From positions 10,782,311-10,846,310 of the forward strand of contig CAJINV010000001.1 in NCBI GenBank assembly GCA_905178155.1: DNA of 64,000 nt, read 5' to 3'. The translations under genes were made by a program, and so were the position numbers. The notes beneath the pieces were generated by a model. It was not told the origin of the DNA. It ran no database searches and saw only the letters and a program-made list of their open reading frames with translations. Shown here in pieces: positions 38,389-61,913 of the stretch. Numbering within the stretch: the stretch's first letter is position 1; each line of letters opens with the position of its first letter. The DNA is from Amoebophrya sp. A120. Taxonomy: Eukaryota > Protista > Dinoflagellata.

Positions 38389-39640
38389 GTGTAAGCCTGT
38401 GATGCAGAAAATGCCAGACCACAGTTTTTTTACATTGGTCATGCCAGACACCCAACAAGTCCGCTTTTCCTGTGCGTTTTCACGTACTGGCCCTGCGTGA
38501 CTGGTTTTCTCGGTCATGATGTACTAGCGCAGTTTTTTTCTTGGATACGCTATGTGGCTGGGCTATGCCGCCAGCTTGAGGCGGATGCGGTTACTGAGAA
38601 GCACTGTCAGCGCATTTGTCACACGCGTTGGCGACTAAGTTTCACAGGCAGCAGCTGACGTTATCTCGATTTAAAAGATGCTCCTCTAAGTCATCTTGTA
38701 GTTGTTGCACGTGCGAACGCGAGGAAGTGACAAAATGTCTCCGATGCAGCTACAAAAGGCGCTTTGGTACACTAAGTCCATCACTACAGGCTTTCAATAT
38801 CTGTAGTTTTTGAGAGACGAACCAGAGGTCTGTTTTGTTCTAAATTCAGTGTTCTAGAAGACATTGCGGCACAAGTATGTTCTCGATTGCAGACAAGGAA
38901 TAAAGCGAGATTGTGATAGAGTACAGGCGGGAGTTGCAACAAAAAAAGTTGGTGTTTTTTTTGAGCGGTTCCTGTATGCGTGATTGAATACAAAATACAT
39001 CGGTAGTTTTTACTAGTCCAGATTTCGGTCTAACTATAGATAAGGTTGGCATCCTGCTAGAAATGGACGTGTGAGAAGGTTGATCTGAAACTCTACTGGC
39101 TCGAAAAGATGCAGTTTTGCGTGAAAAATCTGAACGTGAACCAACTTTTTGAATCATCCATCAGGCCCCTAAAAAGTCAATGCTATGGCGATTTCTTTTT
39201 TGCAATGCTGGCGTTGTCATGTGATTACTTGCCCCTTGATGGGAAGGCTGTCAAGATGAATAACAACTATGGCTCCTGCCAAAAGATAGGTTTTGTAGGT
39301 ACTTACCGCGTAGTAGTTCTAAACAAGGCTGTGTTTCTGTGATTGAAGAGCATTTCGTTTCTTATCCATGAATGGTTTTACGTTTACCTCTTCTGACATT
39401 TTTACCTTCGCGACCTTTGTTGTATAAGCCATGCCTATACAACCAGATATCGAAGCAAAGAATTATGATTATCATTATGTAAAAGCAAGAACTGCTGCTG
39501 TTTGCCGTTGTTAGGAGCTGGCGCGGTCACTGTTTTTTTTTCCCATTTTGATACAACTCGTCCCATTGAAGAACAGTTCACACTGTATAGAACAATTCAC
39601 ACTCTTGGTTTGAGTTTGACGCATTTTCCGGGTACAAATT

Positions 39641-42600
39641 ATGGATCCAGTTCCGGTGATTTTTGCTACGCAGACGGGGATCAGCGAGGAATTCGCCCAA
39701 AATTTAGAGGAGGAGAGCGCGGGCAAGAAAGTTCCCTTTGTCGCCACGAGTGTTACCTCAGTTGCTGTGGATTCGCTAAGGGAAACGAAACTGGCCGTGT
39801 TCATCTGCTCCTCGCACGGCGACGGAGATCCGCCGGATTCCGCCTGCAACTTTTACAACGCCCTGACGGGGGAGCGGAACAAGAAAGCCCTGGCCCACCT
39901 GCGGTTTGCGCTGCTGGGTCTGGGGGACCAGAATTACATGCAGTATCAGGGCTTCCCCATCTCGCTGCAATCCGCTCTGGCCGCTTTAGGGGCAACCTTG
40001 GTGTACGTGCGCGGAGAGGCGGACAACGCCGGGGACATCGACGAGGACTTCGAAAACTGGAAAAACAATGGGTTCTGGGACTGCTTGGAAAGTGAATACC
40101 AAAAGTGCGGAGGTATCACAAGGAAAAATCCCCCCTCCCCATATCAAAAGGAAGTTTCTGATGCTGGATTTGCGTATACGCGTCAGGTCTGTCTTGCAGT
40201 AGAGGAAAGCAGGCTCCTGCCCAGCCTGAGTAGAGAGGTTTTGGCCTAGGCGCTCAGCATGGGAAACGTCTATGCTGTGGGCCCAACAGCATCACAAACC
40301 GCCTGCGTAATGCGGCGGAGCCTGTGGAGTTGTCTTCTTGCAAGACAGACGCGATTTGTTGTCTCAAATCAGCAAGACAAATTTTCGGAAGCATACCTTT
40401 TCGATATGGGGAGGGGAGATTTTTCCTCTCAATAGGAGGGAAGCCTTACTTTGAGGAAGAGGACAGCTCGACCGAAATCTCGACGGCCCCGAATTCGCAG
40501 AATCATGCCGACGACACGGACGACAAGAGCGGTATGGTTTTGTATCAAGCTGCTTCTCGTCCAGAAAGCAGCCCGCTGAAGAAAAACGACTTCTACGCGG
40601 CTGCGGCGGCCGACGACCAAAGAGCTGCCAAAGCAGTTTCAGCGAAAGCCACGCCGGTGGCATCTCCGGCTGCGTCGCCTGCTAAAGAACCGGGACTTGG
40701 CAAGAAGGATATTTTCGCCGTGCTAACGCCGCCGGCGAATAACAAAGTTGTTGCAACTACATCTAGCCCGAGTTGTTCCAGCATCACCTCACCCGTCGGA
40801 AAAAGTATTTCGCCCACAACTTCTCCTCTACTAACGGAGCAGAAGAATCAAATACTGAACAATAGTCGAAGCCGCGTCCAAAATTCCACAGCTACCGCCG
40901 TGATTTTTGGTCAACAAAAGCACCTGCTCGCGCATGTCAATAGCGCTGGAGGTGCTAAGAAGTCATCAAAGGGTAGTACTGGTGAGAATAATCATCTTTC
41001 TGTCGAAGAACTCTTGAAGTCTGACCGCGTTGTGTACTGTGACGAAGCAGTGTTCGTACCCACGAAGGCGGGCGCGTTCGATGACTCCGATACCTCGGAC
41101 TTTGCCCGGGGTCTGTTTGCCCTTGAGTTGCAGAGGGCGTTTGCGCGGAAGGAAACGAAGTATCCTGAGTAAAAACGTACCCACACCAGAGTTGTAATGC
41201 AGGTTTGCAAAGACAGGAAGACTTGTCATGCGCATCCCCATGAGAGCCATTTCCAATCGTGTTTTGGAATTTGTGATGCTGTGAACAGGATGAGCAGCTG
41301 GATTTGTGACGCGGCTGCACTTGCTAACCTGCACTACACTGCAGAGTGCAACTTGTCATGCGTGACTCACAAAACGGCTAGGTTTGTGCTGCAAAATCCC
41401 CATCCTGACTCTGGTGTGGGTACGTTTTTACTCAGGATACGAAGCATCTTTTCTTCATCCAGAACGTGGACCAGGTGGCGCGAACCGTTGCGCGGTTACC
41501 AAATGTAAAAATGTCTGGGTTTGGAAGAATGCAACTTGTAATGCGTATTTCAGAACACAGAAACGTCTCTCATGCATACGTAGCAAAAGCTCCCACTTTT
41601 TGCCAGCAAAATAGGGGACTTGTCATGCGGATTCGGCATTGCGGAAGGTTCTCGAAACCTGTGATGCTAGAGCTTCCATGCCAGACCTTCTGTGTCATGC
41701 AAAAACAGCATGACTCTTCCAGACCCAGACATTTTTACATTTGATAGCGGTCGCTCGTTGACAAAAGCTTTGGGTTTCCGGAAACGCATTTCGCGCACGT
41801 CTCCGCGTGCGTGTTGATGACCGAGAGGCAACAGGACGCAAACACGACCGCGAAGAAGCTCGTCTCTGTGTTGGAGAAACTGAACTGCAAAGTGTTCCGC
41901 GCGGCAAGCGTCGCCGAATTGCTGGAATACGTCCAGTTCTGCGTGGGCGCGGATCCGGACCCGGCTGCGGAAAAAATTGTAAACGAGAAAGAAAAGAAGA
42001 AGAACAAGCAGGACAAAGAGCCACAGGATCGTTTGTTATCGGCGTCAGCGTCAGAAGCATCACCCGTCGCGGGCTCGATGTTTTCGCCACAAAAGATGTC
42101 GATGAACGTGACGTCGCCGGTGGCGGGACTTACAATGACCCCGTCCCCACCGCGGGCGGGATCCAGATCCACTCCCACGTCCGCGCAACCGAAAAAAGGA
42201 TGGGTGCGAAGCGTTTCGCCGCGGGGGAACGTGTACTACTCGAAGTATCGTGGCGTGCAGTGCAAGGGAGAAGATGAGAATTCCCCACAGGAAAAATTCT
42301 CTCCTGGGGCGAAGGACGCTCTTCCGCCGAGTCAGCGAAGTTCCGTGCAGCTTTCCTCCAGGTCTGTTTCCTCCCCGATCTCGCTGGCGCGGCGCAGCCG
42401 AGCGGGCGACTTGGAGGGGTTCGAAGACGCCCCCCTGTCTTTTGAGAACATGAGCCGGCTCGCGTCGCAGTTGCACGTGGTACTGGACTTTTTGGAGCAG
42501 AGCCACGAGCTGGAGACGCGCGCGGTGCAACCACTTTTGGCGGCGAATGCGGAGGATCCGCGCCGGATGGTGCACGTGGAGTTTCAACCGCTCCTCTCCT

Positions 42601-44024
42601 CGTCTGAGTTCCTTGTCAGCGACAACGTGTCCATTCTCGCGCCCTCGTCTCCACTAGCGGTGGAGAAGCTGCTTCTAGCCTTGGAAGCAAGTAGTGCGGC
42701 CGATGAACATGATGTCGACAACGCGATCATGTTGAAGGAGCACGACGTGACAATCAACGGGGCGGGCGGAGGACCAAACAAAAAAGCTGAAAAAGCGAAG
42801 AACGGCACCACCTCCCCTACCGGCACTTCCTCTTCTGTCGCGATGAAGCGGAAACTGGTCGACGTCTTAAAAGATTATGACGAGGGTAAAAGCCAAACCG
42901 ACCTAGCCCGGTTTCTGAACGCATTGTTCGTGCAGACAGAGGAGGGCAAGGCATTGCTGCCACGTCTTCAGAAGAATGCGCGCGTGGCGGACCTAGACTG
43001 CGTCGGCACATTTCTGGGCTACTGCTTCGCGCTGGAAAACTTCTCTTTTGCTAATATCAAGCAGCAGGACCACGCGAACAAATCAGAACCGCCGTCGCCA
43101 GGTACTACTGGCTCGGAGATGAAGCTGAATAGTAATTTTGAGTTTATGCAATTCGTGCAGAAGTCCCGTCCCTACACGCTCGTCGGGAAGACAGGGATCT
43201 GTGTGACGCATCAGTCTTTCGGCCAGGCGTCGACTTTCCTTTGTTGCAACTGTGAAAAGGGAACGAAGGTTTTCGCCAAACTGGTGTCCTCCCCACTGCG
43301 GCTGCAGGATCTGGAGAAGAAAAGCAACGTCTGGAAATTCCTGCCCAGCATTGATGAGAAGAATGTGGAGCCGCCCCCGCTGCTCATGATCGCGACCGGT
43401 GCGGGCATGGGCGTTTTTATCGGGTGGCTGCAGGAGTTTCTGGGCCGCGAAGAGAAGTGCCCCTTCCACGACGTCACCCTGTTTGCCGGTTGCAGGACCT
43501 GGGACGAAGTTCCTTACAGGGGCTTTCTGCACCAGACACTGACGAAGGAGAGTTTTTCTGTGAACTTGGAAAACAAGAAGATCATGGACACAACCTCTAA
43601 TATCTTCGAGGACCACAAACACCTACAAGATGAAAAGATGACGTCGACGGATAAGAGAACGAAGACGGAGGACAATGAGGAAGCAAACGCGTACGCGGTG
43701 AAAGACGAAGCTTTTCTGATCACCAGCAGCGGCACTGAGTTCGGGCGGCAAAAATTCAAATTTCACTGGCACCAGGCACTGTCCCGCGAGGGGAAAAAAC
43801 TATACGTTCAGAAACTGCTGCAAGTCCACCAGGGTCTGCTTGTGGAAAAGCTTGTGGCGAAAAAAGGATTTCTGTACTTTTGTGGAGAAGCCAAGATGAT
43901 CAAAGAATGCAGAGACTTTTTGAAGCAAATCCTCCCGAAGCAGGTCTTTGACGAGAAGCGAATCATCGCGGAACAGTGGGGAACCACCAGGAAGCGCAGC
44001 CGCGCCGGCAGTTTAGTTGTGTAG
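39641..44024 (+). CDS. Diflavin (FMN/FAD/NADPH) oxidoreductase, CPR/MTRR/NDOR1-like, interrupted by three introners
   Basis: Flavodoxin motifs FATQTG, SSHGDGDPPDSA, FALLGLGDQNY; FNR-type C-terminus MIATGAGMG, LFAGCR, ALSRE..KLYVQ, LYFCG, AEQW; one frame once 40114-40434, 41161-41439 and 41497-41746 (each plus one TSD) are removed. Confidence 0.85.
40114..40434. mobile_element. TIR introner family B, 321 bp
   Basis: Same TIRs as 16452; TSD GGAGG; removal gives QKCGGKPYFEEE; the only copy that can be read GT-AG. Confidence 0.93.
41161..41439. mobile_element. TIR introner family C, 279 bp
   Basis: Perfect ~32-bp TIR TATCCTGAGTAAAAACGTACCCACACCAGAGT; TSD CGAAG; removal gives RKETKHLFFIQNVDQ. 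Confidence 0.93.
41497..41746. mobile_element. TIR introner family A, 250 bp (orientation 1)
   Basis: TACCAAATGTAAAAATGTCTGGGTTTGGAAGA...TCTTCCAGACCCAGACATTTTTACATTTGATA; TSD GCGGT; removal gives TVARSLVDKSFGF. Confidence 0.93.
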
Positions 44025-45101
44025 TAGTGCAGCATCGATCTCTTCTTTTTAAGTACAACAATTTTAAGACCTTGTACCTTCCGCTGGCTGTGCAAGCAAG
44101 TAGGCAAAAGGTGCTTTTACTTAAAAGCTTTCGCTTTAATTGCAACTGTAGGTCTACCACAGCCTCAAAACCAATGTCATTTTGACCATAGCAGTTTCTT
44201 ATGGCATAGGACATTGACATCAGGAGTATGTAGGTACACAAAATGGAGTCGCTTTTTGGTCACGTCGAGGCGAAGTTTCCAGAATTTTGCGGTGAAAAAA
44301 AAACCGAGAAACCTGAACAATTGTTTATTACGGAGAAGTGTCGATTGCGTTACGGATATGCTGAACAGGTGTAGGTGTACAATTGATCTTTTTTATACCA
44401 CAGGAAAATGAAAAATGGCATAAAAATGAGAAGGATGACCAATGTCGTCTTTCAATGACGAATAGGAAATTTCTGTTCGAGCTACCTTCTAAAGATCGGT
44501 GAGTACTTATTCGAGTTTGTGTGCTCTCTTGTAGTGCTCTCTTGTCGTAGCTGCACTTGTATATCCATTTTTCTGCTCGTCCGCAGCTGCTGGTCGTGCT
44601 CGAAGATTCTTATAGTGAAAATTATCCTGTCTATTTTTGCAGCCCAGCTCCGTGATCCTCAGCCTCATCAGATGATTCGTGAAGTACTCAACGAAACAAG
44701 CCATCGTGAATTACGTGTCGCAAAGCAGTTTCTCTTCGTCATGATCGTGAAGGAAATTCGGTGCTGTCTATTCAAGATCGGTTCGTCGAAGTACGTGTTT
44801 AAGGCAGTTTTTGTATGCTTCGCGATAGTCATGACTAGCACACCGGCATCATGGAGACAAGTGCTTACTACAACAAGTTATTTTCGCCACCTCTACAACT
44901 TGTTTCCGCGACTCGTAACCAGTTTTTTTTTGCCGGTTCGGCTGTCGTTGTGACCTTAGTGGTGAAGTGATGGCGTAGTTTTTTTAAAAGACGAGATCCG
45001 GCACGACGCCAGCAGAAGACCGGGTAGTAAGTTGTACTTACACACTTTGCCCGACTAGAGATTTTATTCCAGGTCATTTCCACACTGTTCGTTGACAGCA
45101 T

Positions 45102-48100
45102 ATGGAGCCGCCGCCTGCCCCGGTGGTTTTGCCGCCGCCTTTACCCGATGCGAGCGTACCCGGAAGTCCGCCGGCGGACCAAACGGGCAGTCCGATGCTG
45201 CCGAACTTCCCCCCTCCGCCGCCCTCGTCGCCACCACCAGACAGCTCTCCATCTGTGGTAGATTTTTGTGGTTGTAGTTTGATCGTGATAATTTATTTTT
45301 TCTGTATTTTGTTATCGTGTGAGTGGTCGTTGTCGCAGCATCGATCGATCTAATCTTCCTAACACCCAGGTTTCCCCTCCGCAGCAACTCCACGACAGTA
45401 TGGGATCGTCTCAACAGCACTATCACCAGGAACAATCGGGTGAGCTGGTGCTGGAGTTGAATGAAGACCATCACTGGCACCAAAACGGAAACGAGCCCAG
45501 CGGGACGCAGCAGGGAACAAACAAGCACCAGCAGCAGGATTATTACAATTACAACAATCACCACGCCGCGCAATACTACTACGAGCAGCCGCATAACCCC
45601 TCTCAACACGGAGCGAATGGCGGGAGCAGTCAACACCACCGCAGCAACTCTGCCAGCGGAGGGTACTATCACGACCAGAATTACGACCATTACGGCACGA
45701 ACAATGGTAACTGGAACCAGTCCTCCTACTGGGCCTCGGGTTGGGGGGAGCAGCAGCATCAGCACGAGCACTCTCACATCAAACGCGTGGAGCATACATC
45801 GCATCATGGTCATCAAAACTCGTGTACTTACTACCGTTTTTTTGAAGTAATCATGTTGAATTCCGCTCTTGTTCTGAAAAGATGTTGTTACATTCTTCTA
45901 GTACCTTGAATCACATCACATCACATCACATCACATCACGAACCCTAAACCCTAAACCCAAACGCACGAAACAAAAAATCCCAGCCCGCCAAAACGTCGA
46001 GTACTTGCAGCAAAGCATGTTCAACGGGGGCACAAATCCATTTTTTCACGAGTACGGTGCGAACCCCAATTCTAGCCACCACCAACATCACTATCTGAAT
46101 GGAAACGCGCAGAAATTTGATTTTCACGCCAAAACCAGAAACCACGGCCACAACGTGTCGGTTCCCCTGCTCTCGGTCGGCAGAAGTAGCAGCATTGTTG
46201 TGGATTCCGTGACTGCCGCCGCCCAGGCAAAAAACCGCAGCGCCTCCGACTCCGAATGGATCGCGCAGTCGAGTAATACGGCCGCCGCGGCGCAGCAGCA
46301 CGCTAATACTTCTAGGCCTCCGCACCAGAGCACCAGCCACAGCTCGGGCCAAGCGTCCCCGGCGATCAACATCAATCCTCCGCAACAAGTACTAGCCCCA
46401 GATCATGTTTCGGATAACTCTTCTGAGGCCAGCTCGATTTCGAACGAGGTTGATTTTCCTGACCTGGATCAGTACTCCACCGACGATGGGCTGGTTGACG
46501 TGGCAGCCTTTCGGCAATCTGTCGAAGCTTCGCAGAGGTCTCGCACGAAGGGCTCGCTGGAGATCCGGCGATGCGCCGACGGCGAACTGGTGCCAGACGG
46601 CGTAAAGGTGCCCAAGGAAGTCATGAAGAGCGTGGATTTCTTCCTTGCCCTACCGCACAAGACGTTGCGGTCCCTGGACGCGATCGCGCAGGCCGTGCAG
46701 GAAGAGCAAATGTTCACCTCCACGCAGCAAATGGACGTGACCCCAGGAACGGCGGACGCCGGGCTGGATATCAGAACCGCGGACGGGACCACGTCAACGG
46801 TGACCGCAGAAGAACATCAACCCGCCGCCAATGCCGTTGACTTACTCAACGGCGGCCTCGTTGTTCCCGAAGTAGGTCTCGCCAACGTCTCCCCCTCCGC
46901 GTCGAAGGAAGGTAGCACCTGCGGGGCCAATGTCCGCCGGCAGGGGCAGGGCCGGCGAGCCAAGTACAAGATCGAGTTTCAGCTTCTCACGGGCGAGGAC
47001 GAGGCCGAACCAGAAACGCTGAAAAAGCGCGACGCCGTGTTCCGCCAGGTGGCGGCTCTGGTTGATGTCGCGAACCAGTCCGAGCACTGCGAGTTGAACA
47101 GCATCTCCGTTGGGGTAAACACAACCACGCCGGTGATTGCCGGAAACCTCGCGTCCGTGGTATTGCAGCGCGTGAAGGAGAGTTGCCACCTGCGCGAGGT
47201 CGTGGTGAAGAACATGGTGATCGGAAAGACGATGACGGCAGAAACCATTCAGATTCTGGCGGACCGCGGGGCAAGGGGTTGGCTGGAGAGTTTGTGTTTG
47301 ATCAACACGTGCATCGGCGACACGGGGGTTTCTGCCATCGTCGGGCACTTGATGCAGAGCAAGAAAAGTTCTTCAACCACTGCGGGCAGCAAAACTTCTT
47401 TCAAACTTGTCGAGCAGGGGGTGAATGGCTGCGGCCACGAGGCGGCGGGGGGAGCTTCCGGCTCGCAAACGGAATCCGAACAAGAGAACGCTCCTGCTGG
47501 TAGTTCGTCAGACGCCGAGACGCTGCAGCAAATGTCAAAATCGGCCTTGGAGAAACTGGTGGTGAAGGAACAGAACATCTCCCGTGCGGGCGCATTAATA
47601 CTCGCCGAGGCGCTGCGAACGCCGAACGCCACTTTGGCGGTCTTGGACCTGTCGAATAACCACCTTGGGTTGGACGGCGTTGACCGGCTCGGGGAAATGC
47701 TATTCGTATTCTGCATAAAGTTTTGTCCTACTTGTACTTTTCGACCTCATTCTGTGAAATACTGCCAAAAAGTAGTGGATCTGGATTCCTGTTTCATCTT
47801 TCCCGTTTCTAAGTTTGCGTAATCTTCTTGCACATAGATTATACTCGGCCAGCACTCTGTTGTATGCCGTGATAAGGATTCGCGTAAGAGTACTAGTGCT
47901 CGTGGTTTAATAGGAAGAAATGCCAATCAAATCAGGTCAACAAGTCGCTAAAAGAGCTTTACCTCCGGAACGTGGGGGCTATGACGTGCTCAGCTGTTAC
48001 AATCTCAAAGTCAAACGTTACAATAGAATATGGAAATCTGTGATGCGCGAGTGCATGATCCATCCAACTCTCGCAGGATTGCGCATGACAAGTTCCGGAG

Positions 48101-50476
48101 CCCCAAACCGCACTAGAATCTGGCGAAATTTGTGTTGCAGAAAGTAGAATGCTCTGCGAGTCTGTCATGCTCATCATGCAAGACAAATTCCAGATTCTAT
48201 TGTAACGTTTGAGATTGTAACACCTGAGCGGGTTATAGGGGCTTCTGGGAATTTCTGGAATCGCGGTTTGTTCAAGGTAGTGGCTATCAAATGTAAAAAT
48301 GTCTGGGTCTGGAAGAATGCAAGATTTGTCATGCATATTTCTCATGACCCATGATGCCTGTAATGCATGCCCTAGCATCACAGATTTTTTGAGGGATTCT
48401 TGATGCCCATTCCGCATGACAAATGCCCTCTCCGCGTAGCAAAAATTAGTCTCTGTTTGCTGCTCATGCAACACAAATTTTTTAGTCATCGAAACGCAGC
48501 ATCACAAGTTGCATTCTTCCAGACCCAGACATTTTTACATTTGATAGTGGCCGCATTGGAACAAAGCAACACGATATGGAAGCGTCAGGTTTGAAATCGT
48601 CAAAGTTGAAATAATTTGTAATGCATAAAATGCATGCCCCGAGGTGCGTGCGTTGCAGAGCAGGCAAGTGAGGCCGATTGTAAGCCTGTTTGGGGTTACA
48701 GCTCGAGCTGCTAAAGTAGCATGAGAAAATCACTCTTCTTTGCCTAGACAGCACGACAAACTGGATTTAGGGACCGCCGAAATTTGTCATGCGCCACTTG
48801 GAAAATGGGTTCCAACTGGCATCCATTTTATGCATGCCAACTGGCATCCATTTGTTGGCGAAAAGTAAGGTTTGTTGGCGAACAATAAACGCATCCGTTG
48901 GCGCAATGTAAGGATCGTTGGCGAACGTTAAACGTACTCAGTGGGCGAAAAGTTGGACTTGTTGGCGAAAAGTATGGTTTGTTGGCGCAAAGTAAGGATC
49001 GTTGGCGAACGCTAAACGCATGTTGGCGAAGTGAGGACTGTGTGCGAAACGTTGTGCGTGTTAGTATGGCGAAGTGAGGACTCGTCTAGCACGTTGTGCG
49101 TGTTAGTATGGTGGCCGGGATCGAAGCTTATGCCTTATTTTTATTTTTGTATGCGGCGACTCTTTTGGTCGGTAGCGCGTAGTCTTTTTATTCCGCTGCG
49201 TTTTACTCCATGATGAGCTTTGACACATTTCTTTTTGGCTGCTCGTTCACTACCCGCTGGCAGACACCTATTCTGTCATGCGAGTTTTGTGTTGCACGCC
49301 TGAAAAAATTTATAACTTCACTGTGTCGCCTGATCAAATTGCGAAAAAGAAAACCTAGATATTTATTTGTTTCGGAGGCCCGCATCCCTCCTAGCTCTAG
49401 TTTCTTCAGCCGATCCGAAGGTAGTTTGTATGTGTGCCCTGGCTTTCCGATATCGAGCTCTGTTTTGCATGCAAAATCGGAATGTCGCCTCTTGCGCGGA
49501 GTTGCTTGAGGACACGTTGTATGTTTTTGGGACCACCTACCTACTAGCCCGAGGGGGTGCGGGAGCCTGAAAAAAAAAGAAAGTAAGGAAAAGTTGGCGT
49601 AAGTGGGATCATGTGCCCGAGGATGATGGTGATGGCTTCGGTCCGCCTGACTCCACGACCTGGTGGCCGAACCATCTGCGGTGAGGTGCCCTTACAGGTT
49701 GTGTTGTGGTTTCGGTCGGTTTAGCATGACAAATTATTTCAACTTTGTCGATTTCAACTCTGACACATCCATACACGACTTTGGAGCTGCTCGACCTAGG
49801 ACAGAACAACATCAAGGACAAAACGGCGGGTAAACTGGGCGAGATCTGGAAGAAATCCGGGCTAAAGAAGCTTTTTCTCAGCGGAAATTGGCTCGCGGAA
49901 GAGGCCATATTCCAGATTTTGGAGTCCGTCGTGCAGCACGACCGGTTGGAGGTGCTAGACCTGGGCGAGACGAAGATGGGCCGCCTGCCGGCGCTGCGCG
50001 TCGGCACCATGCTGCGGAAGGTAAAGAACTTGAAGACGCTGCTGCTGCAAAAGAACCAATTCGGCAAGCACGGGGCCGCCGCCATTTTCGATGGGCTGAA
50101 GGCCAACCGGTCGGTGAAACGGCTGGACCTGATGGGGAACGAGATCTGCGACCACGGGGCGGTGGCCTGCGTGCACATGCTGTGCACGAACAAGACCTTG
50201 AAATACCTGGACCTGCAGCACAACCATCTCGCGGAAAAGACGGCGAAGACCCTCGCCTCGGTGATCAGCAACGTCAATTTGTGTCCACAGCTAACGGTTC
50301 TCAAACTGCAGAACAACAAAATGACCGCTGAGCAGATCCGTTCCCTGCGGAACGCCCTGTCCGCACGAAAAGCCGCGATCCATCCGATGACGAACGCGGC
50401 ACTGGTGGCCGCGGGGGCGAACAGCAACGAGGAGGAAGAGGTTTTCCAAAACCACGAAGCGGGGGTGGTCGCGTGA
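45102..50476 (+). CDS. RNI-like leucine-rich-repeat protein, multi-exon (5' exons uncertain)
   Basis: LRRs LESLCLINTCIGDTG, LAVLDLSNNHLG, LELLDLGQNNI, LKYLDLQHNHL; GT-AG intron 47706-47935 plus three introners give continuous MLFVNKSLKELYLRNVGASGNFWNRGLFKVVAALEQSNTTLELLDLG. Confidence 0.8.
45910..45962. repeat. (ATCAC)6 microsatellite followed by telomere-like CCCTAAA repeats
   Basis: ATCAC x6, G, then AACCCTAAACCCTAAACCCAAA. Confidence 0.75.
47980..48237. mobile_element. TIR introner family G, 258 bp
   Basis: ~60-bp imperfect TIR (TATGACGTGCTCAGCTGTTACAATCTCAAA... / ...TTTGAGATTGTAACACCTGAGCGGGTTATA); TSD GGGGC; frame restored. Confidence 0.9.
48285..48546. mobile_element. TIR introner family A, 262 bp (orientation 2)
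   Basis: Family A TIRs; TSD GTGGC; interior is reverse-complement relative to the 41497 and 53939 copies. Confidence 0.93.
48575..49773. mobile_element. TIR introner family F, 1199 bp, carrying an ~890-bp internal insertion
   Basis: ~50-bp imperfect TIR TATGGAAGCGTCAG.../...CTGACACATCCATA; TSD CACGA; removal gives SNTTLELLDLG; aligns to the reverse complement of 60061-60370 except 48837-49723. Confidence 0.9.
48854..49110. repeat. Degenerate tandem array of GTTGGCG(A/C)A units, period ~20-24 bp
   Basis: About 9 units starting GTTGGCG, followed by a duplicated ACGTTGTGCGTGTTAGTATGG. Confidence 0.8.
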
Positions 50477-51384
50477 AGAAATGAACCTCCTCCGCAGGAC
50501 GATTCCGGGTTTTTTTTTCAACATGACTGATTCTGATTTGCTTCGGCACGAGCTTCTTTTTTCGTTTTAACTTTTTATGCTGGCTTTTTATGAACATACT
50601 TTTTAGCCAAACGAAACTCCATTTCAGTTCTTTTGTGTTTCGGTTTCTCGATTCTAGCTCAACATTCTTCATCATTCTGATAGATAGACGCATCTTTGAT
50701 CGTGAAAGTCATAGTTTTCATCGTCTTATTTGACGGTTTCGTTGTGCACAGTCTACGCTAGGAAACAATTACCATGTTCATGCAAATTCTTTTTTAGTTT
50801 TAGGATCACGAATTATAAGAATCGCGTCGTATGTACCGTATTTTTTGTGGCTGTTGAGCCAGTTTTAACCGCACGCTTTTCCTATCAGAGGCCGAATTCC
50901 ACTTTTGATTTGGATAATCTGTAGTTAAGTTTGAATGCTTTTCTTGTATCATATAGAAAGTTTCGGCGTAATTTTCTAACTTGGAAACACTTATTAAATG
51001 CATGCACATAAAGATTGTCTCACCTTTTATATTTATCCAGCAGAGGTGGGTTACGCTTACGACCAGCACGGTCACACCTCGTCACAGTCCGTGTTTGCCT
51101 GAGAGTCCTTGAGAGTATCATGGATGAGAAATTTAGTAGGTTGTATATGTACCAGTGGAAACGGGTAAAAATGCCGTTTTTGAGTGTGAGCGATTCCAAA
51201 CTGGTGAACTTTAAGCCCAAGGCGCGATGGTAAGAACAATTCCAATTATTGTTACAGGACCCCATTATAATTTAAGTACGACTTTGGCTTTGCGCACGTA
51301 TTGGTATTCGGAGTTTCAAAAGTATTCTGGTGGATCTTAAAGATGTCACTTTGATCCTGTGCTCACACATACTGTGAAATAGAA

Positions 51385-53034: not shown

Positions 53035-53049
53035 GCTTAGTGAACGGAA

Positions 53050-53109
53050 GATGGCGACTGTTTGATGTCAGAGCAAACGACGGCGACTGTTTGATGTCAG
53101 CGCGCAAAC
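53050..53109. repeat. Short tandem duplication (~29 bp)
   Basis: GA(T/C)GGCGACTGTTTGATGTCAG occurs twice, just downstream of the E2 stop. Confidence 0.8.
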
Positions 53110-53599
53110 TGGCTGGTTACGCAGTTAGCATAATCGCAAAATATGCTGCAATCGATGAATGTCAACGAACCAGAGCAACTGACTTTGGCTTCGGTACCAG
53201 CCTAGACACAAATTTGAATTTCTTAGTGTTCGAAGGCAATTTAGCGAAAGAAGTGGCCGCTAGATTGTCCATTTCCGGAAAAAAACGGTGCTGAGCGCTG
53301 TCAGAGTTCGTCAAACCCATTTCAAATGCAACCGCCTAAATCTATCCATTGTATTTGCGGTTTCCAAATGACAGCTGTTCCTGGCTCGGTAGTAGTGGGA
53401 AAAAATGAATAAATGAAATAGTTGTAATAATGAGTGCCACTTGTGTCTCGAGCGTTTTGAATGATATGACCGCTAGTATTGCGACCGGCTAATCGCGCGC
53501 TGATGGGTGAAAGAACAAAACACAACGGGCCACTTCCCCTCGCCTTTCAAGTTTTCCAGCAGCAAGGGTCCCTGCAAAAACTGACCACCTGCGGCCTCC

Positions 53600-56395
53600 A
53601 TGAAGCGGGGTGCCACACGGAGCGGGACTGCGTCTTCGCTACAGCGCAGCGCTACGTTCGAAGAGCGACTGCTGGAGCTTTCGACGAAGCTAGAAAACCA
53701 CCAATGGAAGGAAAACATAAAAGAGGAAGACCGCGTCTACGTCCAGAAATGGATGCGGCACGAGCCTCGTAATGTTTTCTTTGTAAAGTTGCTTTTATAC
53801 AACCCAAAAATACAAATACAATCTGCTGGGAATCGATCTGTTTCTTTGCTTCCCCTTTTCTTTGCAGGACGACACGCAGAGAATGAATCCTTTGGCTGCA
53901 CAACCAACTACAGGTCTCCGTCGTTTTCTGATCAGCTGTATCAAATGTAAAAATGTCTGGGTCTGGAAGGATCCGAATTTGTGATGCGAATTCCACAACA
54001 CGCGCAAATCTCTCATGCCTAGACAGCAAAAGATTCCCATTTTCTGTTACAAAACAGGGGGATTTGTCATGCGGATTAAGCATTGCGGAACGTTCTCGAA
54101 ATCTGTGATGCCAGGGCTTCCACGACAGACCTTCTGTGTCATGCAAAAACACCATTACAAAAATCTGCATTCTTCCAGACCCAGACATTTTTGCATTTGA
54201 TAAGCTGCAACACCGTAGACGACGCGTTTGAGTCGTTGAAGAAGGTCGCGGCCGACCGCACCAAGCACGACTTGTGGGGTCTGCACTATAAAGAGCTGTC
54301 GGAGACCGTGAAAAACGGGCTCAAGACGGGTGCCTTCTACAGTCAGGGGGTCTCCAAGGAGGGTTACCCCATCATCTGGCAGACCAACCGACGGCTGGAC
54401 TGCCGCCTCGCGGAGAAGGAGCGAATACGGGCCGTGGTGCTGGTGCTGGACTCGCTGGAGGCCAAGATGGACGACGGGCAGTTTGACAAGAGGCGGTGGA
54501 TCATTGTGATGGACCAGGCCGGCAGCCCGGCGTATGGCTCTCCGTCCCTGTCCTTCAGTAAGACCCTGTATGCTGTGCAAAAGCATCGTACTCGTATAAA
54601 TGCAGGTCTTGCATTACAAATTTCTTTTACAAGGCAAATCAGCATTACAAATTTTATTTCTCATGCTGAGAAAATTTGTAATGCATTTATACGAGTACGA
54701 TACTTTTGCATTTCATACCCTGGTCGGAATGACGACGAAGTTTTACCCAGAACTCATGTACAAAGTGTACATCATCGACGCGGGAACCATTCCGCATCTC
54801 ATCTTCTCCTTCATGAAACCCTTCCTCGGCGAGGGTGCACAGCAGAACATCAAGTTTGTCAAGCGGCCGCGGAAGAGCTCAATATCTCGGGCGTCCTCCA
54901 GTTCGTCCATCAGCGGCGGAAGTAGTGATGTTTTTTGGCGGGATCCTCCCACTTATTCTTGCACGACTTAGTTCTTGATTGAATCTGCAAACGCGCTGCG
55001 CGCTGCTTTCGGTGAATGCTTTACTTACTGCACCATTGGCGACATGATCATCAGAAGTCATCTAACTGGACCAAATCCTTACCACATGTCAGAGGCAAGT
55101 GCGCTGGAGAACATGGTGGAGCTTATTGGCGCCGAGGCGGTGCCTGACGATATCGGCGGCTGCAGCGGGTTTGAATGGAACGGTGAGCATATCCAAGAAA
55201 AAAACTGTGTTAGTGTAACTTTCTTTGGGTGACAGCATCACAAATTTGCTCTACATGACAGAAAAAACCTGTCATGCGTGGTTTGTAAGGGAAAACACAC
55301 ATGAAAAGAGGACTTGATGGCTGTCTGGCATGACAGACGTGCCTCTGTTGCAAGTTCTGCATTACAGAGTTACACTTACACAGTTTTTTTCTTGCATAGA
55401 GCAGCACTGGGAGTCGATAGTGCTGCTAAAGGAGCCACTGGTTCCCGACGAGGCCGACCCGCTCAACGTCCTCGAGCCGGCGGGTAAAAAAGGGCGCCGC
55501 TGGAGCCGCGGGCTGGTGCGGTCCGCCGCCGCAATGAAGAGCACGGCCGCGGCCTCTGCGACAACGCTGAAAAACACGGCGAAGCCGGTCCTGAAAAGGA
55601 TACCGAGTAAATCACGGGAAAAACTAAGCGCCGCTTCCAGTGCGGCAAGTACGCCGCAGACGGAGCACGGCGCGAGCCACTTGCAGGGCCCACCACAACT
55701 CACCAAGGAAAAGTCGCAGGACAGCCTCGCGCACAGCTCCTCCAGCGACGGGCGGACGCAGAACGCAGGAGTACCCCCAACCAAGCTGGGACCAGGCCAA
55801 CATGTGCGTGAGCGAGGTACTAGCTACTCGGTGGGCGATATTTTGCATTACAGAATCTCTTGTAGCATCTTGGTAGCTATCGTGATGGTCATCCTGCTAC
55901 GTACTTGTCGTTGCCCCTCCTTCGGCCCTCTGTGTAGTAACTGAAACGCGAGTGCAAGAGAAAGCAGTAGCAATCGTTTTCATATGTAAAAATTCAGGTA
56001 GTGGAACTTGCTGCACGCGCAACGACGAGCGGGAGGGTGGCAGTCGGTACTCGAGCAAGCAGAAGAATTTGCTGACGAGCAACAACACTCCCCCAGATAG
56101 TCAAGAAAAGCCGCGCGTGGAAGACGACGTTTTCTCGCTGTACAGCTTTCAAACCGTGCAAAGTAACGACTACAGTGCTCCTTTTGCTTCTCCGTCAGCC
56201 CCAAATGCAGTGCCGAGCAGCACCGTGGCCATGCGTACTGATAGATGTGTTTCTCCTTTGCAAGGATTTCTCGACTCTCAAGATGTTGCGTTTCAACTGA
56301 GAATCAATAGGAGCATCGAGATCTTATTTCGAGGGTCAAACCTAAAAACCACTCCGCAGCTTTACCGGTGGCAATACCTGAGAACAAGCGTTTAA
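53600..56395 (+). CDS. CRAL-TRIO/Sec14 lipid-binding domain protein, multi-exon (ends uncertain)
   Basis: GT-AG intron 53769-53913 plus three introners give HEPRLRRFLISCNTVDDAF..., GVSKEGYPIIW, WIIVMDQAG, FSKTLVGMTTKFYPELMYKVYIIDA, MKPFL...QNIKFV, AVPDDIGG. Confidence 0.8.
53939..54202. mobile_element. TIR introner family A, 264 bp (orientation 1)
   Basis: Family A TIRs; TSD AGCTG; removal gives FLISCNTV. Confidence 0.93.
54569..54717. mobile_element. TIR introner family D, 149 bp
   Basis: ~36-bp TIR TATG...TGCAAAAG(C/T)ATCGTACTCGTATAAATGCA; TSD CCCTG; removal gives SKTLVGMTTKFYPE. Confidence 0.92.
55190..55398. mobile_element. TIR introner family E, 209 bp
   Basis: ~31-bp TIR TAT(C/G)CAAGAAAAAAACTGTGT(T/A)AGTGTAACT; TSD GAGCA; removal gives WNGEQHWES. 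Confidence 0.92.
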
Positions 56396-57551
56396 AAGAT
56401 CCGGGGGAACGGTCTGGGTGTTGTAGCTGCTTTCGTTCGACGGCCCGAGAACCGCAACTAGATCGGATTGCGTGACGAGCAGGTCCCCAGTGTCAACAGC
56501 CGCGTTTCGCGTTGGAGAGCGGCTCCGTCCTTGCGTTCCCGACAGGGCAGTGAGTCGGTACACACGACACCCGTATCCGTTACTGCTTACGCGTCGCAAC
56601 ACTCGCGCGTAGAGTGGGAGCAGTATCTTTTGCGGTGCAGCGTCGGCTTTGGTTCTGGCCGACGCGGCCGGGTGTGCATTTCGTGTAGAATCGCCAATTT
56701 GATGTACGCCGTCTTCCTTCTTGTTGTGATAATTGCGCCGCACGGAAGATGCTGAGGCTTTCCTCGCATGCTTTAGCTAGTACAACGCAACTTTCAGTTT
56801 CGACGTATAGTACGAATGAAACGAAGAACATCTTCATCTGTACGATGGCGGTGCTTGCGAACCTTGTTTCAAACGTTGCGTATTGGTTTCGCAGTCGTGT
56901 ACCAGGAAAAAAATTTTATCGGAAGAACGCCGCGCCTTTCTTTGCGGCGCAGGCGGGTGTAGGTGGTACCTACTACTTTCTACTGGTTGATGTCACGCAC
57001 CGGACGCGGTCCCTCAGGAACCAGTGTTTTTCTGCGCCGATTTCCAAGAGGAAGAGTTGGAACAGTTCGGAAGAGGATCGGAAGATCTTTGATGTTGACC
57101 ATCTTCTGGTGGATTATCCGATGCGGCGCCATGGGCTCATTCAGGAAGATGATCCGTTAAATAATTCTGTGATCTAGTACTGTAGTGCGCAACAAGCTGA
57201 AGGAGCTGCATGTTGGAGATCCACAATTTTTTGCTCTGCTATCCGCGGCTGAAGCGTGGTCGCGGGGACGGTGAGAACCATGTCAACCTTTCGGATAATT
57301 GCTCTCTTCCTTTGACGACCCAAATACAGTCTTTCCTCTGTCATTTGTCTTTCTTATGTTCGCTCCAGAGTTTGTGTACTAGACCTTGGAAAATAGCCAG
57401 GTCGACGTGGAGACCAAGAGTTTATTTTTCTAGTAAGTACAGGCTTTTTGTTTTTACTTTTTGTTTTTACTTACCTAGAGCTACTTCAGCTTTGAGGAAT
57501 GTAGCGACTTTTTTCTTGGGAGAAAGGACTAGTTTGACACAACTCGTCAAA

Positions 57552-60500
57552 ATGAGCGGGTCTACCACCTCCGTTCCCGAGGATCCCGCCGCCCCACCGG
57601 TGCATCTGAGTCCTACCGATCGTGATCCGTTTTTTGGCACCCTAGGTAACTTGTGCTTTCGGAAGGCGGACGCACCGGCGAAGAACTGGGTCGGTGCGCG
57701 TTCCAATGTCGGCGTCAATCTCGCAAGCGGGGGGAAGGTCGCCTTTCAAGTCCTCCTGAAGACGCCGGGCGTGGCGCGGTTTGGCTGGAGCACGAAGGAT
57801 GCCACACTCGAACTGGGTATGGACGCGAAGAGCTTTGGCTGGGGCGGGACCGGCACCAAGAGTACGAACAAGAAGTATCAAAAGTACGGGCAGACTTTCG
57901 GCGTGAACGACACGGTGCTCGCCGTCCTGGATGCGGACCGACACACAATCACCTACTACAAGAATGGTGTGGCCGCCGGCAGTGGGGACGCGTTTTGGAT
58001 CCCGCGAGAGCTCTGGCAAGAGACCTTTTACGCGCACGTCCTGACGAAGGAAGCAACTTTCTGCGTCGACTTTGCGGACGTTCGAGCGGGGTCGAAGTTC
58101 CCGCTGCCCAAAAACGCGAGCTGGCTTGCCGCACGCCGCCCGGGAGCCGTTGACCTGCGGCCACGCAACGCCGGAATCCAAGAGAGCGGAGCAGGCGCGT
58201 ACGGATATTTCAATGCGCACGCAGACATTGCCGCGGTCCTCGCTACTTCCGCATCAACTTCCGCCTCCTTTGCCTACAACCCTCCGGGACGGATGAATAA
58301 TGACGCCGCTCAACAACCCGCAAGCGATCCGAACTTCAAAAGCCAGCACACCTTGGGACAGGAGAAGCCGTGGCACCAGGCAAAAACCGAGTATGTGAAC
58401 CACTTCCGGGAGTTGCTGACGCACGAACACAAGGCCGAGAAGGACAAGCTCGCGAGCCGTGTCCGCAGGTCCTTAGACAGCCTGCAACGCGACGGCTTCG
58501 GGGTGGGGGGCCAAGTTTTGGACCGCGGACTCGCCGAGGACGTCGAGAAACACAATAGTAACCATCAAAATCAAAAGTTTCTGCAATTGGCGAAAAACGG
58601 CGAGCTGACCTTGCGGTGCGCCTCGCGGCCGTTTTTCCCCTACCTTTCGGAAGTGCACGTCGGCCGGGAGGTGGTTGTCACGCCGGAGACCCTGACGCCC
58701 GATCCGGACGACGGCAGCGTCAGCATTTTGGCGGACGTGGTGAAATGGACACCCGACAAGAAGTGTCTGATCATTCAAACGTCCTTCAGCCTGTTGCCTC
58801 GTGCCGCGAACGGGAAGTACCGGCTGGACCTCTCTTGCAACGTGACGACGTTCAAGCGAATGGATTTGATTCTCGACGCCATCCAGCGGGACGGCGGCGC
58901 ATCCAACACGCAGATGAAAAAGGACAAGTACCGCCTCGGACTGCTGCTTTCCGGCACGCCCCTGGCTGCCGCCGTCTGCGCGGACATCAAAAAAACCTCA
59001 TCCGCGGCCCAAAAGTGGGACCCGCTGGACCGCGCGTCTTCGGATGCAAAAGCCGCCATCAGCGAGGCAGCGGCGGCACGGCCGCAGGCCGCGAATGCGT
59101 ACGAAACGAAGTCGGATCTCGGGGAAGCGAAGCAGGTGGTCGCGGAGACTCTGAACTTGTCGCAGAAAAACGCCGTTGCGCAGGTGCAAAACCGGAAGTT
59201 GACCTTCATCCAGGGGCCGCCAGGTACCGGGAAGACGACGACCGCAGCGGCGATTGCCGTGGAGTGGCTGAAGAAAAACAAGGGGCCGGTGTTGTGCATA
59301 TCAAATGTCAAAATGTCTGGGTCTGGAATAGTGCGTGATTTGTCATGCTGCTTTTCCATGACCCATGAGGTCTGGAATGCCGGACCTAGCATGACAGATT
59401 CTGCGAGACCTTTGTAATGCCTATTCTGCATCAGGAACTACCTCCTGACTTGGTCAAAATTGGGCGACTTTTGGTAATCATGCAACACAGATTTTTGCAT
59501 ATCAAAAGGAAACATCCCCCCTCCCCATATCGAAATGGAAATCTGTGATGCAGGATTTGGGTACACAAATCGGATTTGTCTTGCAGTAGGGCATCGCAGT
59601 CAGATCCTCGGCCTAGGTAGGGGCGTATAGGTCTAGTTGCTTAGCATTGCAAACGGGTGTCCCCTAGGCGCAACAGCATGCCAAATCGCTTCCATAATGG
59701 TGCGGAAGCCTCTGCGCTTGTCTTCTTGCAAGACAGACGTGATTTGTGGCCTCAAATCAGCAACACAAATTTTCGGAAACATACCTTTTCGATATGGGGA
59801 GGGGGGATTTTTCCTCAGAATATTGCATGCTGCAGATTTAGCATGACAAGTTGCAATCTTCCAGACCCAGACATTTTTACATTTGATAGTGCACCGCGTT
59901 TTCCAACAAGGGTACGGATCACTTGGGGCAGGTGCTGACGAACAAGTTTAAGCTGAACGTGGTGCGCGTGGGGCTTTCGCCCGTCGATTTCTCGCTCGAC
60001 GCACTGATAGAGCAGTACGGGGGCACCTTAGCCAGCATCATCTACGACTGGGCGGACGTATATGGAAGTGTCAGAATCGAAATTGACAAAATCGGAAAAT
60101 TTGTGATGCACAAAATCGATGCCAGTTGGGGCCTCAGTTTCCAAGTGGCACATGACAAATTTCGGGAGCACCCAAATCCAGTCTGTCATGCTGTTGGGGC
60201 AAAGAGGGCTGCTCCTGGCATGCTACTTCGGCAGCAAATTGCATACCCCTAAACAGGCTACCTTACAATCGGTCTCATTTGCCTGCCCCCCAATACAGGT
60301 CTTGCGTGCCATACATTTTATGCATGACAAGTTTTTCGATTTTGTTGATTTCGATCCTGACACTCCCATAACGTAGTTTGCGCGACCTGCGTCGGCTGCG
60401 GGATGTCGATTTTGAAAAAGTTCGAGTTTCCCTATGTGATCATCGACGAGGCCTCGCAGATCGTGGAGCCCGCGGCGCTGATCCCCTTGACGCGCGGCTG

Positions 60501-61913
60501 CGTGCAGTGCGTGATGGTCGGCGATCAGTGCCAGCTTCCTCCCACCGTGATGGCCGACGAGGCGGCTCGGGGCGGGCTCGGGGTGAGTTTCTTTGACCGG
60601 TTGATCCAACAGGGGATGGAGGTCTTCATGCTGGATACGCAGTACCGCATGGCCCCGGTGATCAGCGCGTTTTCCAGCGCCCGGTTCTACGGCGGCAAGC
60701 TGCAGAACGGGGTTTCGGACCAGGACCGGCCGTTCGAAAAGCTTCGCGTGCACGGGGGGGAGTTTTCCAATTTGATGTTCATCCACGTCGAGGCTTGGGA
60801 GCAAACGAGCGGCTCTTCCAAGTCGAACGACGAGGAGGCGAATTGTGTCGTGCACCTGGTCGAGCATTTTTTGAACTGCCGAGTGTGTCCCTCTATCAAA
60901 TGCAAATATGTCTGGGTCTGGAAACTTGTGATGCTGAATTGCGCATGATTGAAGCGCTTCCAATGGCAGCCAAGCATGACAAGTTTTTGAGACGCCCGCT
61001 GATGCATAGCACGCATTACAAATTGCGTTTTTGCATGACAAAGAAAGTTTCTCTTTTGCTGCTCATGCAACACAGATTTTCCAGGGATGCTTGACACGCA
61101 TTACAAGTTCCACTTTTCCAGACCCAGACATTTTTGCATTTGATACCCGCCAAGGAAATTGGCGTGATCAGTCCGTACTCCGCGCAGGTGGGGAAGGTTC
61201 GGAGCCGGTTGTCGAAGTGGACCAACACGAATCCGGAGGTGAAAGACGTCCAAATAAGCTCCGTGGACGCGTTTCAGGGATCGGAGCGCGAGATCGTATT
61301 GGTGTCGCTGGTGCGCGCGAACGCGGAGGGCAACCTGGGTTTTGTGCGGGACTGGCGCCGGCTCAATGTGGCGCTCACGCGCAGCAAGAAGTTTTGCGGA
61401 GTGGTTGGAAACTTGAAAACGCTGGCGAAGAGTGCGAGTAGCATCACGCACGAGATGCTGCGGTTCCACTATCAACAAGTGAAGAATTGTAGTTCTGGCA
61501 GGTCGGAAAACAAGCGCGCGGCTTTCGCCACGTGGGACGCGGTAGAGAAGGAACTGCTGCCGTTACCGGGAAATTTCTTCGACTCATACTTCAGCGAAAC
61601 ATTCTTGCATCCACGAAGTAGAAGAGCCGCAGCAGGGGCACCGCCGGGAGGCAATCGTGCGGGGGAAGTACTAGCCCAGCAAGAAATTATATCCGCAAGT
61701 ACAGAAGAGACGCCAGTAGTGGAAGTCGATTCAGGCGAGTCCTGGTTGAAGGTTGTCGAAGTTCAGCCAATTTTGGCGGAAGGAGATGAGGAGGACTGGG
61801 ACCAACTGATGCCCCCTCCTCTCATCCCCGCCGTTGATGGAGAGGCACAACCTGGGTCCACCGGCTCCTCAGCAAAAAGACCGCGCGCGGAAACCCAAGT
61901 GGATGAATGGTGA
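57552..61913 (+). CDS. SPRY domain + UPF1/DNA2-NAM7-like SF1 helicase, interrupted by three introners
   Basis: SPRY (RFGWST..LELGMDAKSFGWGGTG.KS.NKKYQKYGQTF); helicase motifs LNLSQ, IQGPPGTGKT, CTAFSN, VVCATC, IIDEASQ, GDQCQLPP, QYRM, GVISPY, SSVDAFQGSE, RRLNVALTR in one frame after introner removal. Confidence 0.9.
59299..59888. mobile_element. TIR introner family A (orientation 2), 590 bp including a nested family B copy
   Basis: Family A TIRs; TSD GTGCA; removal gives GPVLCTAFSNKG; length without the nested copy and its TSD is 262 bp. Confidence 0.93.
59500..59822. mobile_element. Family B element nested inside a family A introner, 323 bp
   Basis: TATCAAAAGGAAACATCCCCCCTCCCCATATCG...CGATATGGGGAGGGGGGATTTTTCCTCAGAATA; TSD TTGCA. 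Confidence 0.92.
60061..60370. mobile_element. TIR introner family F, 310 bp
   Basis: TATGGAAGTGTCAGAATCGAAAT.../...ATTTCGATCCTGACACTCCCATA; TSD ACGTA; removal gives DWADVVCATCVG. Confidence 0.92.
60894..61145. mobile_element. TIR introner family A, 252 bp (orientation 2)
   Basis: Family A TIRs; imperfect TSD CCCTC/CCCGC; removal gives CRVCP(A/S)KEIGVISPY. Confidence 0.92.

What the first reader, a model, noticed from the sequence alone, without database searches (positions are those of the whole stretch)
41497..61145. The same introner family occurs in both orientations in + strand genes
Seen: family A interiors at 41497 and 53939 read ATTTGTCATGCGG / CTGTGATGC, while copies at 48285, 59299 and 60894 carry the reverse complements (e.g. 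CCGCATGACAAAT, GCATCACAGATTT). Family F at 48575 aligns to the reverse complement of the copy at 60061. All hosts are + strand and all frames are restored. Established: spliceosomal branch-point and polypyrimidine signals are strand-specific. Inference: only the TIRs (same ends either way, forming a 30-60 bp RNA stem that juxtaposes the exons) and the TSD can specify removal. This resembles euglenid non-conventional introns or endonuclease/ligase-type splicing.
Basis: partly seen in the sequence, partly recalled or inferred. Interest (0 to 1): 0.88.

Follow-up and report, generated by a model that had tools for sequence, protein, structure and literature searches.

The report
Introns removed whichever way they face
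In a parasitic marine dinoflagellate, small transposon-derived introns without normal splice signals sit in genes in either direction and are missing from the transcripts either way, likely because the cell reads the hairpin formed by their matching ends rather than their interior; the introns are already described, but this two-way behaviour and the cut position narrow down how they are removed.

Summary
Observation confirmed. The window is Amoebophrya DNA (nearest protein: strain A25, 50%), and the elements match the published A120-type introners (TAT-N7-AAA inverted repeats, 5-nt duplication). Family A copies 41497/53939 face one way and 48285/59299/60894 the other; F and G pairs are also opposed. 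All hosts are + strand, and removing the element plus one duplication opens the frames. Across the window and 136 metagenome loci, family A splits 36:38 relative to inferred host sense, and 93-95% identical copies face opposite ways. Transcript contigs lack both orientations of families A and G; a DNA run keeps them. New details: at 2 of 2 imperfect duplications the upstream copy stays, so the cut is at the hairpin base on the 5' side and 4-5 nt past it on the 3' side, and duplication identity is not needed. The 5' arm is better conserved than the 3' arm (29:8). The elements are known; their removal chemistry is open.

The parts
41497..41746 (+). Family A introner A1, reference orientation, duplication GCGGT; removed unit 255 nt
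   Evidence: removal read from contig pieces X4 record 18 and X3 record 11 (arithmetic)
48285..48546 (-). Family A introner A2, opposite orientation, duplication GTGGC, in the LRR gene
   Evidence: no transcript contig spans its joint
53939..54202 (+). Family A introner A3, reference orientation, duplication AGCTG
   Evidence: joint 53770-[13 nt exon]-54198 in X1
59299..59888 (-). Family A introner A4, opposite orientation, duplication GTGCA, carrying nested B3
   Evidence: joint 59293->59889, 595 nt skipped, in X1
60894..61145 (-). Family A introner A5, opposite orientation, imperfect duplication CCCTC/CCCGC; upstream copy kept
   Evidence: X1 record 5 piece starts at 61150 with no mismatch
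48575..49773 (-). Family F introner F1 (1199 nt, extra interior), opposite to F2, duplication CACGA
   Evidence: removal not covered by transcript contigs
60061..60370 (+). Family F introner F2, duplication ACGTA
   Evidence: removal inferred from the 167-nt side of the neighbouring joint and the contig length 1791
38366..38547 (.). Family G introner G1, opposite to G2, imperfect duplication CACCA/CGCTA; upstream copy kept (host + strand inferred from a 117-codon ORF)
   Evidence: X2 record 1 joins 38364 to 38552
55190..55398 (.). Family G introner G2, duplication GAGCA
   Evidence: joint 55184->55399 in X1
40114..40434 (.). Family B introner B2; the only window copy with a GT..AG reading
   Evidence: X2 record 3 and X3 record 8 end at 40435 and 40108
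59500..59822 (.). Family B introner B3 nested in A4, duplication TTGCA
16452..16772 (.). Family B introner B1, duplication GTACT
   Evidence: no reads laid here
41161..41439 (.). Introner C, duplication CGAAG
   Evidence: removal from X4 loose end at 41434
47980..48237 (.). Introner D, duplication GGGGC
   Evidence: not covered by transcript contigs
54569..54717 (.). Introner E, duplication CCCTG
   Evidence: joint 54562->54717 in X1 and in 2 raw reads of RNA run X7
39641..44024 (+). Host gene: flavodoxin + NAD-binding oxidoreductase (hosts B2, C, A1)
45849..50476 (+). Host gene: leucine-rich-repeat protein (hosts D, A2, F1); 5' part of the model not resolved
53600..56470 (+). Host gene: CRAL-TRIO protein with 4 GT-AG introns and 3 introners (A3, E, G2); ends approximate
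57552..61913 (+). Host gene: SPRY + SF1 (AAA_11/AAA_12) helicase (hosts A4, F2, A5)

Best explanation
These are Amoebophrya A120-type miniature transposon introns that sit in exons in either orientation between 5-nt duplications and are absent from transcript contigs either way, likely because a dedicated non-GT-AG machinery recognises the hairpin formed by their inverted ends and cuts at fixed distances from it. Step 1 (inferred from anatomy): a transposase acting in trans inserts the element at near-random exonic sites, with no orientation preference, making a 5-nt duplication. Step 2 (predicted): the roughly 30-nt ends pair in the pre-mRNA whatever the interior's direction. Step 3 (shown at 2 of 2 informative sites): the removed piece runs from the first base of the stem, or one base before, to 5 or 4 bases past it, so the upstream duplication stays and the message is restored exactly. 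Step 4 (inferred, untested): cutting and joining is by a stem-measuring cut-and-ligate route like that proposed for Euglena nonconventional introns, not by branch-point chemistry. A weak preference for one end sequence at the 5' side suggests that the enzyme also reads some terminal bases. I put about 0.8 on 'the ends, not the interior, direct a fixed-register removal' and about 0.45 on the whole chain including step 4.
For: Orientation relative to inferred host sense: family A 36:38 (74 of 138 copies called; strict 20:24 of 44), and five other families also occur both ways. Near-identical copies face opposite ways, e.g. window A4 vs L008 93.5% and L011 vs L079 95.2%. Both orientations are missing from transcript contigs for A (A3 and A4 as listed joints; A1 and A5 from piece ends) and for G; DNA run X5 runs through the element ends. 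No terminal dinucleotide rule: GT/GC/GA..AG is possible in 11 of 122 copies, and duplication bases follow flank composition in 19 of 20 cells. Removing element + 5 nt gives the best frame in 83 of 90 scored copies. Mean predicted pairing is 0.8-0.94 at positions 8-28, and sense and antisense fold equally (74 of 137 lower in sense, p=0.88). U1 snRNA was not detected in A120 (PMC7789003 section 10). In Euglena a paired motif at fixed spacing from the borders is required (PMC12501133 abstract and discussion).
Against: No test here touches the chemistry. G.U pairs are not favoured over A.C mismatches across the arms (120:121), so there is no sign of selection on RNA pairing beyond what a DNA transposon end gives. 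Positions 4, 5 and 7 of the stem are matched in only 81, 80 and 67 of 137 copies. The 5' arm keeps TATCAAATG more often than the 3' arm (29:8, p=0.0008), which a purely symmetric stem reader would not cause. A U-run and a GCATBAC motif lie near the 3' end in both orientations. The published view favours an adapted spliceosome. The cut register rests on two sites, seen in assembled contigs of one sample.
Confidence: 0.45

Rival explanations
1. A remodelled U2-type spliceosome removes them. The inverted repeat supplies the same linear signals in either orientation (TAT..AAAAA at the 5' end; branch-like GCATBAC, U-run and ATA at the 3' end), the stem brings the ends together, and a new factor replaces the missing U1.
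For: Spliceosomal proteins are nearly complete and U1 was not detected; 15% of canonical A120 introns share the repeat layout. GT-AG introns alternate with introners in one transcript. The GCATBAC motif lies 30-60 nt from the 3' end in 33/36 and 28/37 copies of the two orientations. 5' arm bias. Precedent: MITE-derived non-canonical introns of Fritillaria are spliceosomal (PMC11282704 section 6). Two-way introners exist in Aureococcus and Polarella.
Against: The last bases of the intron come from a near-random duplication, so there is no acceptor dinucleotide, whereas Fritillaria, Polarella and Aureococcus introners keep defined ends. The U-run is predicted to be paired in the stem. The 5' bias is weak in copies not picked by the search pattern (43:28, p=0.08).
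Confidence: 0.4
2. The skips are reverse-transcriptase jumps across a strong hairpin between short direct repeats, not splicing (artefact type recalled from general knowledge).
For: Strong stems plus direct repeats are the setting for this artefact; all transcript evidence here is cDNA.
Against: Keeping any of the three elements in the helicase gene or the three in the oxidoreductase gene cuts the ORF (1081 to 638-845 aa; 1179 to 758-1083 aa) and splits Pfam domains. G1 is skipped exactly although only 3 of 5 duplication bases match.
Confidence: 0.04
3. The elements are excised from DNA in transcribing nuclei, as ciliate IES are, and not from RNA.
For: They have transposon ends, and excision would be blind to orientation.
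Against: DNA run X5 has flat 42-46x depth and its contigs cross the element borders of G1, B2, C, A1, D and F1; none of the 15 joints shown is a clean excision (58 more were not shown).
Confidence: 0.05
4. Orientation is fixed within subfamilies, each adapted to one direction, and the window only mixes two subfamilies.
For: In the window A1 and A3 share 131 of 159 aligned interior bases, but only about 65-69% with the opposed copies.
Against: 69 of the 119 most similar pairs are opposed, with whole-element identity up to 95%.
Confidence: 0.03

Closest known systems
Amoebophrya A120 introner elements (Farhat et al. 2021, PMC7789003; sections 10-12 and 16 read, supplement searched as text)
   Same: Ends TAT + 7 variable bases + AAA (both ends in 203 of 245 copies); 5-bp direct repeats; about 240-260 nt; non-canonical borders; hairpin proposed to join the exons; nearest protein is from Amoebophrya A25.
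   Different: Not a different thing. The paper text does not discuss element orientation, calls the splice position variable and the repeats 3-5 nt. Here the duplication is 5 nt, the orientation is random and the register is fixed at the two sites that can show it.
Two-way introners of Aureococcus anophagefferens, Micromonas and Polarella glacialis (bioRxiv 2020.10.14.339549 passages; PMC10228655 passage on Huff 2016; Huff 2016 itself not seen)
   Same: DNA-transposon introns with TIR and TSD that make introns in either orientation.
   Different: They carry or recruit GT/GC/GA and AG ends, need particular TSD sequences, and Polarella classes 6, 8 and 10 show an orientation bias. Here there is no dinucleotide rule, no clear TSD preference and no interior bias.
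Euglena nonconventional introns (PMC12501133 abstract and discussion; PMC11282704 section 6)
   Same: Non-GT-AG, terminal pairing, MITE-like origin, longer unpaired overhang at the 3' end than at the 5' end, machinery unknown. My inference: in both, the two overhangs add up to a duplication-like length (3+5-6 there; 0-1+5-4 here).
   Different: The Euglena code (N3-CDG ... CHG-N5-6, then a purine) is not met; the stem here is longer and starts at the border; circular products were not tested.
Fritillaria borealis non-canonical introns (PMC11282704 section 6; PMC13326754 abstract start and passages)
   Same: MITE-derived, TIR + TSD, non-GT-AG, abundant.
   Different: They have dominant AG-AC/AG-AT ends and are spliceosomal; no dominant ends here.

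Membership tests
Amoebophrya A120 introner elements | Organism is Amoebophrya | tested here: met
   Best named homologue of the ubiquitin-conjugating protein is Amoebophrya sp. A25, 50% identity over 99%; the strain is inferred from the end motif only
Amoebophrya A120 introner elements | Inverted repeat starting TAT, 7 variable bases, at least 3 A | tested here: met
   Both ends in 203 of 245 copies, either end in 223; the scan itself required TAY ends; families D and F deviate
Amoebophrya A120 introner elements | 3-5 nt direct repeat at the borders | tested here: met
   5/5 match in 205 of 237 locus copies and 13 of 15 window copies; the scan looked for 5-nt repeats
Amoebophrya A120 introner elements | Repeated, non-canonical, removed from transcripts | tested here: met
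Euglena-type nonconventional intron | CDG at +4 to +6 paired with CHG before N5-6 | tested here: not met
   Family A reads mostly CAA or TCA at +4 to +6 under the two possible cuts
Euglena-type nonconventional intron | Purine at the first base of the downstream exon | tested here: not met
   A+G is 60% or 48% at the two candidate positions, against 57% in flanks
Euglena-type nonconventional intron | Stem joining the two ends | tested here: met
   Predicted only
Euglena-type nonconventional intron | Excised as full-length circle, no lariat | not testable with these tools
   Needs RNase R / debranching data
Aureococcus/Polarella-type spliceosomal introner | Works in both orientations | tested here: met
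Aureococcus/Polarella-type spliceosomal introner | GT/GC/GA donor and AG acceptor carried or recruited from the TSD | tested here: not met
   11 of 122 copies; 1 of 15 in the window
Aureococcus/Polarella-type spliceosomal introner | Removed by the spliceosome through a lariat | not testable with these tools
   No branch-spanning reads available
tRNA/IRE1-type endonuclease-ligase splicing | Dedicated endonuclease and ligase; 2',3'-cyclic phosphate and 5'-OH ends (recalled) | not testable with these tools
   No genome held; no end chemistry

The most novel reading that the evidence does not exclude
Amoebophrya runs a second, spliceosome-independent mRNA splicing system that measures from an RNA hairpin, needs no splice-site sequence and no orientation, handles tens of thousands of introns, and arose independently of the Euglena system: a general way to neutralise any transposon with inverted ends.
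Probability: 0.4. Interest if true: 0.88.

Novelty: already known. Interest (0 to 1): 0.52.

Why it matters
How Amoebophrya removes the majority of its introns is an open question since 2021. The elements and the hairpin idea are published. I did not find in the papers searched (text searches of PMC7789003 and its supplement; PMC12130899, PMC9860276, PMC11282704) that their orientation is random, that both orientations are removed, or where the cut lies. Supplementary figures that are pictures were not visible. These three facts shrink the signal to about 30-50 nt at each end and give a ruler (0-1 nt before, 4-5 nt after the stem) that can be checked genome-wide from imperfect duplications. 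A sequence-free, orientation-free intron would explain how so many transposon insertions in exons are tolerated, and would be a second origin of hairpin-guided mRNA splicing if the spliceosome proves not to be involved.

Tried and rejected
No whole genome was held and the metagenome records could not be opened further, so the count is not genome-wide. No match of the family A end in viral contigs. No holder on record as RNA was listed; X1-X4 are guessed RNA from one sample, and I treat them as transcripts because one X1 contig also lacks four GT-AG introns. Raw RNA runs X7-X9 gave only 10, 4 and 47 laid reads, nearly all on repeats: no use for splicing efficiency. The LRR gene (D, A2, F1) was not spanned by transcript contigs, so F is shown removed in one orientation only. 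High-depth joints between different elements come from other copies and were set aside. G.U versus A.C test: 120:121 overall; the sub-window excesses (53:29 at positions 17-28, 25:43 at 10-16) run in opposite directions and follow from the 3' arm drifting more, so I do not count them. Sense-versus-antisense folding energy: no difference. A at duplication position 3 (50 of 136, p=0.004) is one of 20 tests and is not claimed. Mismatch positions in imperfect duplications (18 mismatches in 15 copies) did not settle the cut. The codon model had one training gene out of frame; it was fixed, whose counts I report; the pair list uses the earlier host calls. The earlier-findings search returned nothing. 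The protein atlas did not answer. PMC12621601 holds none of the searched terms.
Full report
What is there. The window holds 15 elements that begin TAY, end ATA, have inverted ends of about 30 nt and sit between 5-nt direct repeats. Fourteen pass a fixed filter that finds none in 20 shuffled windows. Five belong to family A. After trimming 45 nt from each end, A1 and A3 align forward, and each aligns to A2, A4 and A5 only in reverse complement; F1/F2 and G1/G2 are opposed too. The hosts are + strand genes, and taking out each element with one repeat restores long frames with intact helicase motifs across all three joints of the helicase gene.

Organism and class. The nearest named homologue of a window protein is from Amoebophrya sp. 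A25 at 50% identity. Farhat et al. (PMC7789003, sections 10-12 and 16 read) describe A120 introners whose repeats start with TAT, seven variable bases and at least three A. That motif is at both ends of 203 of 245 copies here. They report over 60% non-canonical introns, no detected U1, and propose that the hairpin joins the exon borders. So the elements are known.

Is the orientation really free? Within the window, orientation is confounded with subfamily. They yielded 237 distinct elements. With 14 window copies, 245 of suitable length were clustered and 240 fell in six families with no inconsistent orientation edge. Host strand was inferred from the frame and codon score across the joint, and could be called for 137 (91 under strict limits); the rest were left out. 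Family A splits 36:38 (strict 20:24); the others 5:7, 5:11, 7:3, 8:13 and 2:2, none significant. Of the 119 most similar pairs 69 are opposed, with identities up to 95%. Orientation is therefore free at the level of young copies. These host calls are predictions, and the loci are a biased sample from a related population.

Are both orientations removed? Contigs of run X1 join 59293 to 59889 (A4, opposite, with its nested element) and skip A3 (reference orientation), E and G2, on a contig that also lacks four GT-AG introns. Piece ends and lengths show A5 and F2 missing from the same contig as A4, and A1, C, B2 and G1 missing from contigs of X2-X4. DNA run X5 crosses the element borders at single-copy depth. 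Thus 10 of the 14 non-nested window elements are absent from transcript contigs, covering both orientations of A and G; D, A2 and F1 were not spanned and B1 was not examined. Limits: the contigs come from one sample, their RNA status is a guess supported by the missing canonical introns, and only E has raw-read support (2 reads).

Where is the cut? Perfect repeats hide it. Two copies have imperfect repeats. At A5 the downstream piece starts at 61150; at G1 the contig joins 38364 to 38552. In both, the upstream repeat is kept. The removed piece starts at the stem's first base or one before, and ends 5 or 4 bases after the stem. G1 matches at only 3 of 5 bases, so repeat identity is not required; G1's host strand is inferred. 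Repeat sequence follows flank composition, and a GT/GC/GA..AG reading exists for 11 of 122 copies.

What is read? The ends are predicted to pair with probability 0.8-0.94 at positions 8-28, and less at 4-7, equally in sense and antisense. There is no wobble signature of selection on pairing (120:121). Two results point to some linear reading. The 5' arm keeps the family 9-mer when the 3' arm has lost it in 29 copies against 8 the other way (25:7 with one copy per locus), in both interior orientations; the trend is weak in copies not picked by the search pattern (43:28, p=0.08) and was found post hoc. A GCATBAC motif lies 30-60 nt from the 3' end in both orientations, because it belongs to a loose inward extension of the repeat.

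An inverted repeat presents the same linear signals whichever way it faces, so orientation-blindness excludes the interior, not the spliceosome. Polarella and Aureococcus introners work both ways with ordinary splice sites (passages; Huff 2016 not seen). What does weigh against a normal spliceosome is the lack of any end dinucleotide and the fixed distance from a long stem, which parallels the spacing rule shown in Euglena, although the Euglena sequence code is not met. Fritillaria shows that a spliceosome can adapt to non-canonical MITE introns.

Verdict. Real, belonging to a known class, with orientation-freedom and cut register not found in the papers searched. End-directed, fixed-register removal about 0.8; cut-and-ligate chemistry 0.45 against remodelled spliceosome 0.40. 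Interest 0.52.

Noticed in passing
window 31689-37967, - strand: Copia-type LTR retrotransposon: 280-nt LTRs 99% identical, TG...CA ends, 5-nt duplication, RVT_2 domain, 393-aa and 1402-aa ORFs in one frame separated by a stop. Its duplication length equals that of the introners; PMC12130899 (passages) reports A120 introners with TIRs and homology to Copia/Gypsy elements.
   Followed up: partly
window 59500-59822: Family B element nested in A4 with its own duplication; the whole 595 nt is missing from the transcript contig.
   Followed up: yes
window 48846-49723: F1 carries about 880 extra bases, including a 20-nt repeat array (48854-49018) and a 533-nt segment (49046-49578) ending in an A-run that other copies lack.
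   Followed up: no
window 41368-41788 and 48104-48524: Summed DNA contig depth of 1e5 against about 43 for single-copy DNA hints at thousands of family A ends; not a copy number.
   Followed up: no
family A copies in L001-L136: Positions 4-9 of the ends come in a few recurring types shared between families, suggesting exchange or common ancestry of end tips.
   Followed up: partly
window 55254-55393: 46 raw reads of RNA run X9 lie only on the interior of G2 with an inversion joint; probably another copy or strain.
   Followed up: no
window 53914-53938, 48243-48284, 48552-48574: Micro-exons of 25, 42 and 23 nt lie between adjacent introns; the 25-nt one is kept in the transcript contig.
   Followed up: partly
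loci with imperfect duplications: 7 of 18 mismatches fall at the first duplication base, mostly with T or A in the downstream copy, which fits that copy being intronic.
   Followed up: partly
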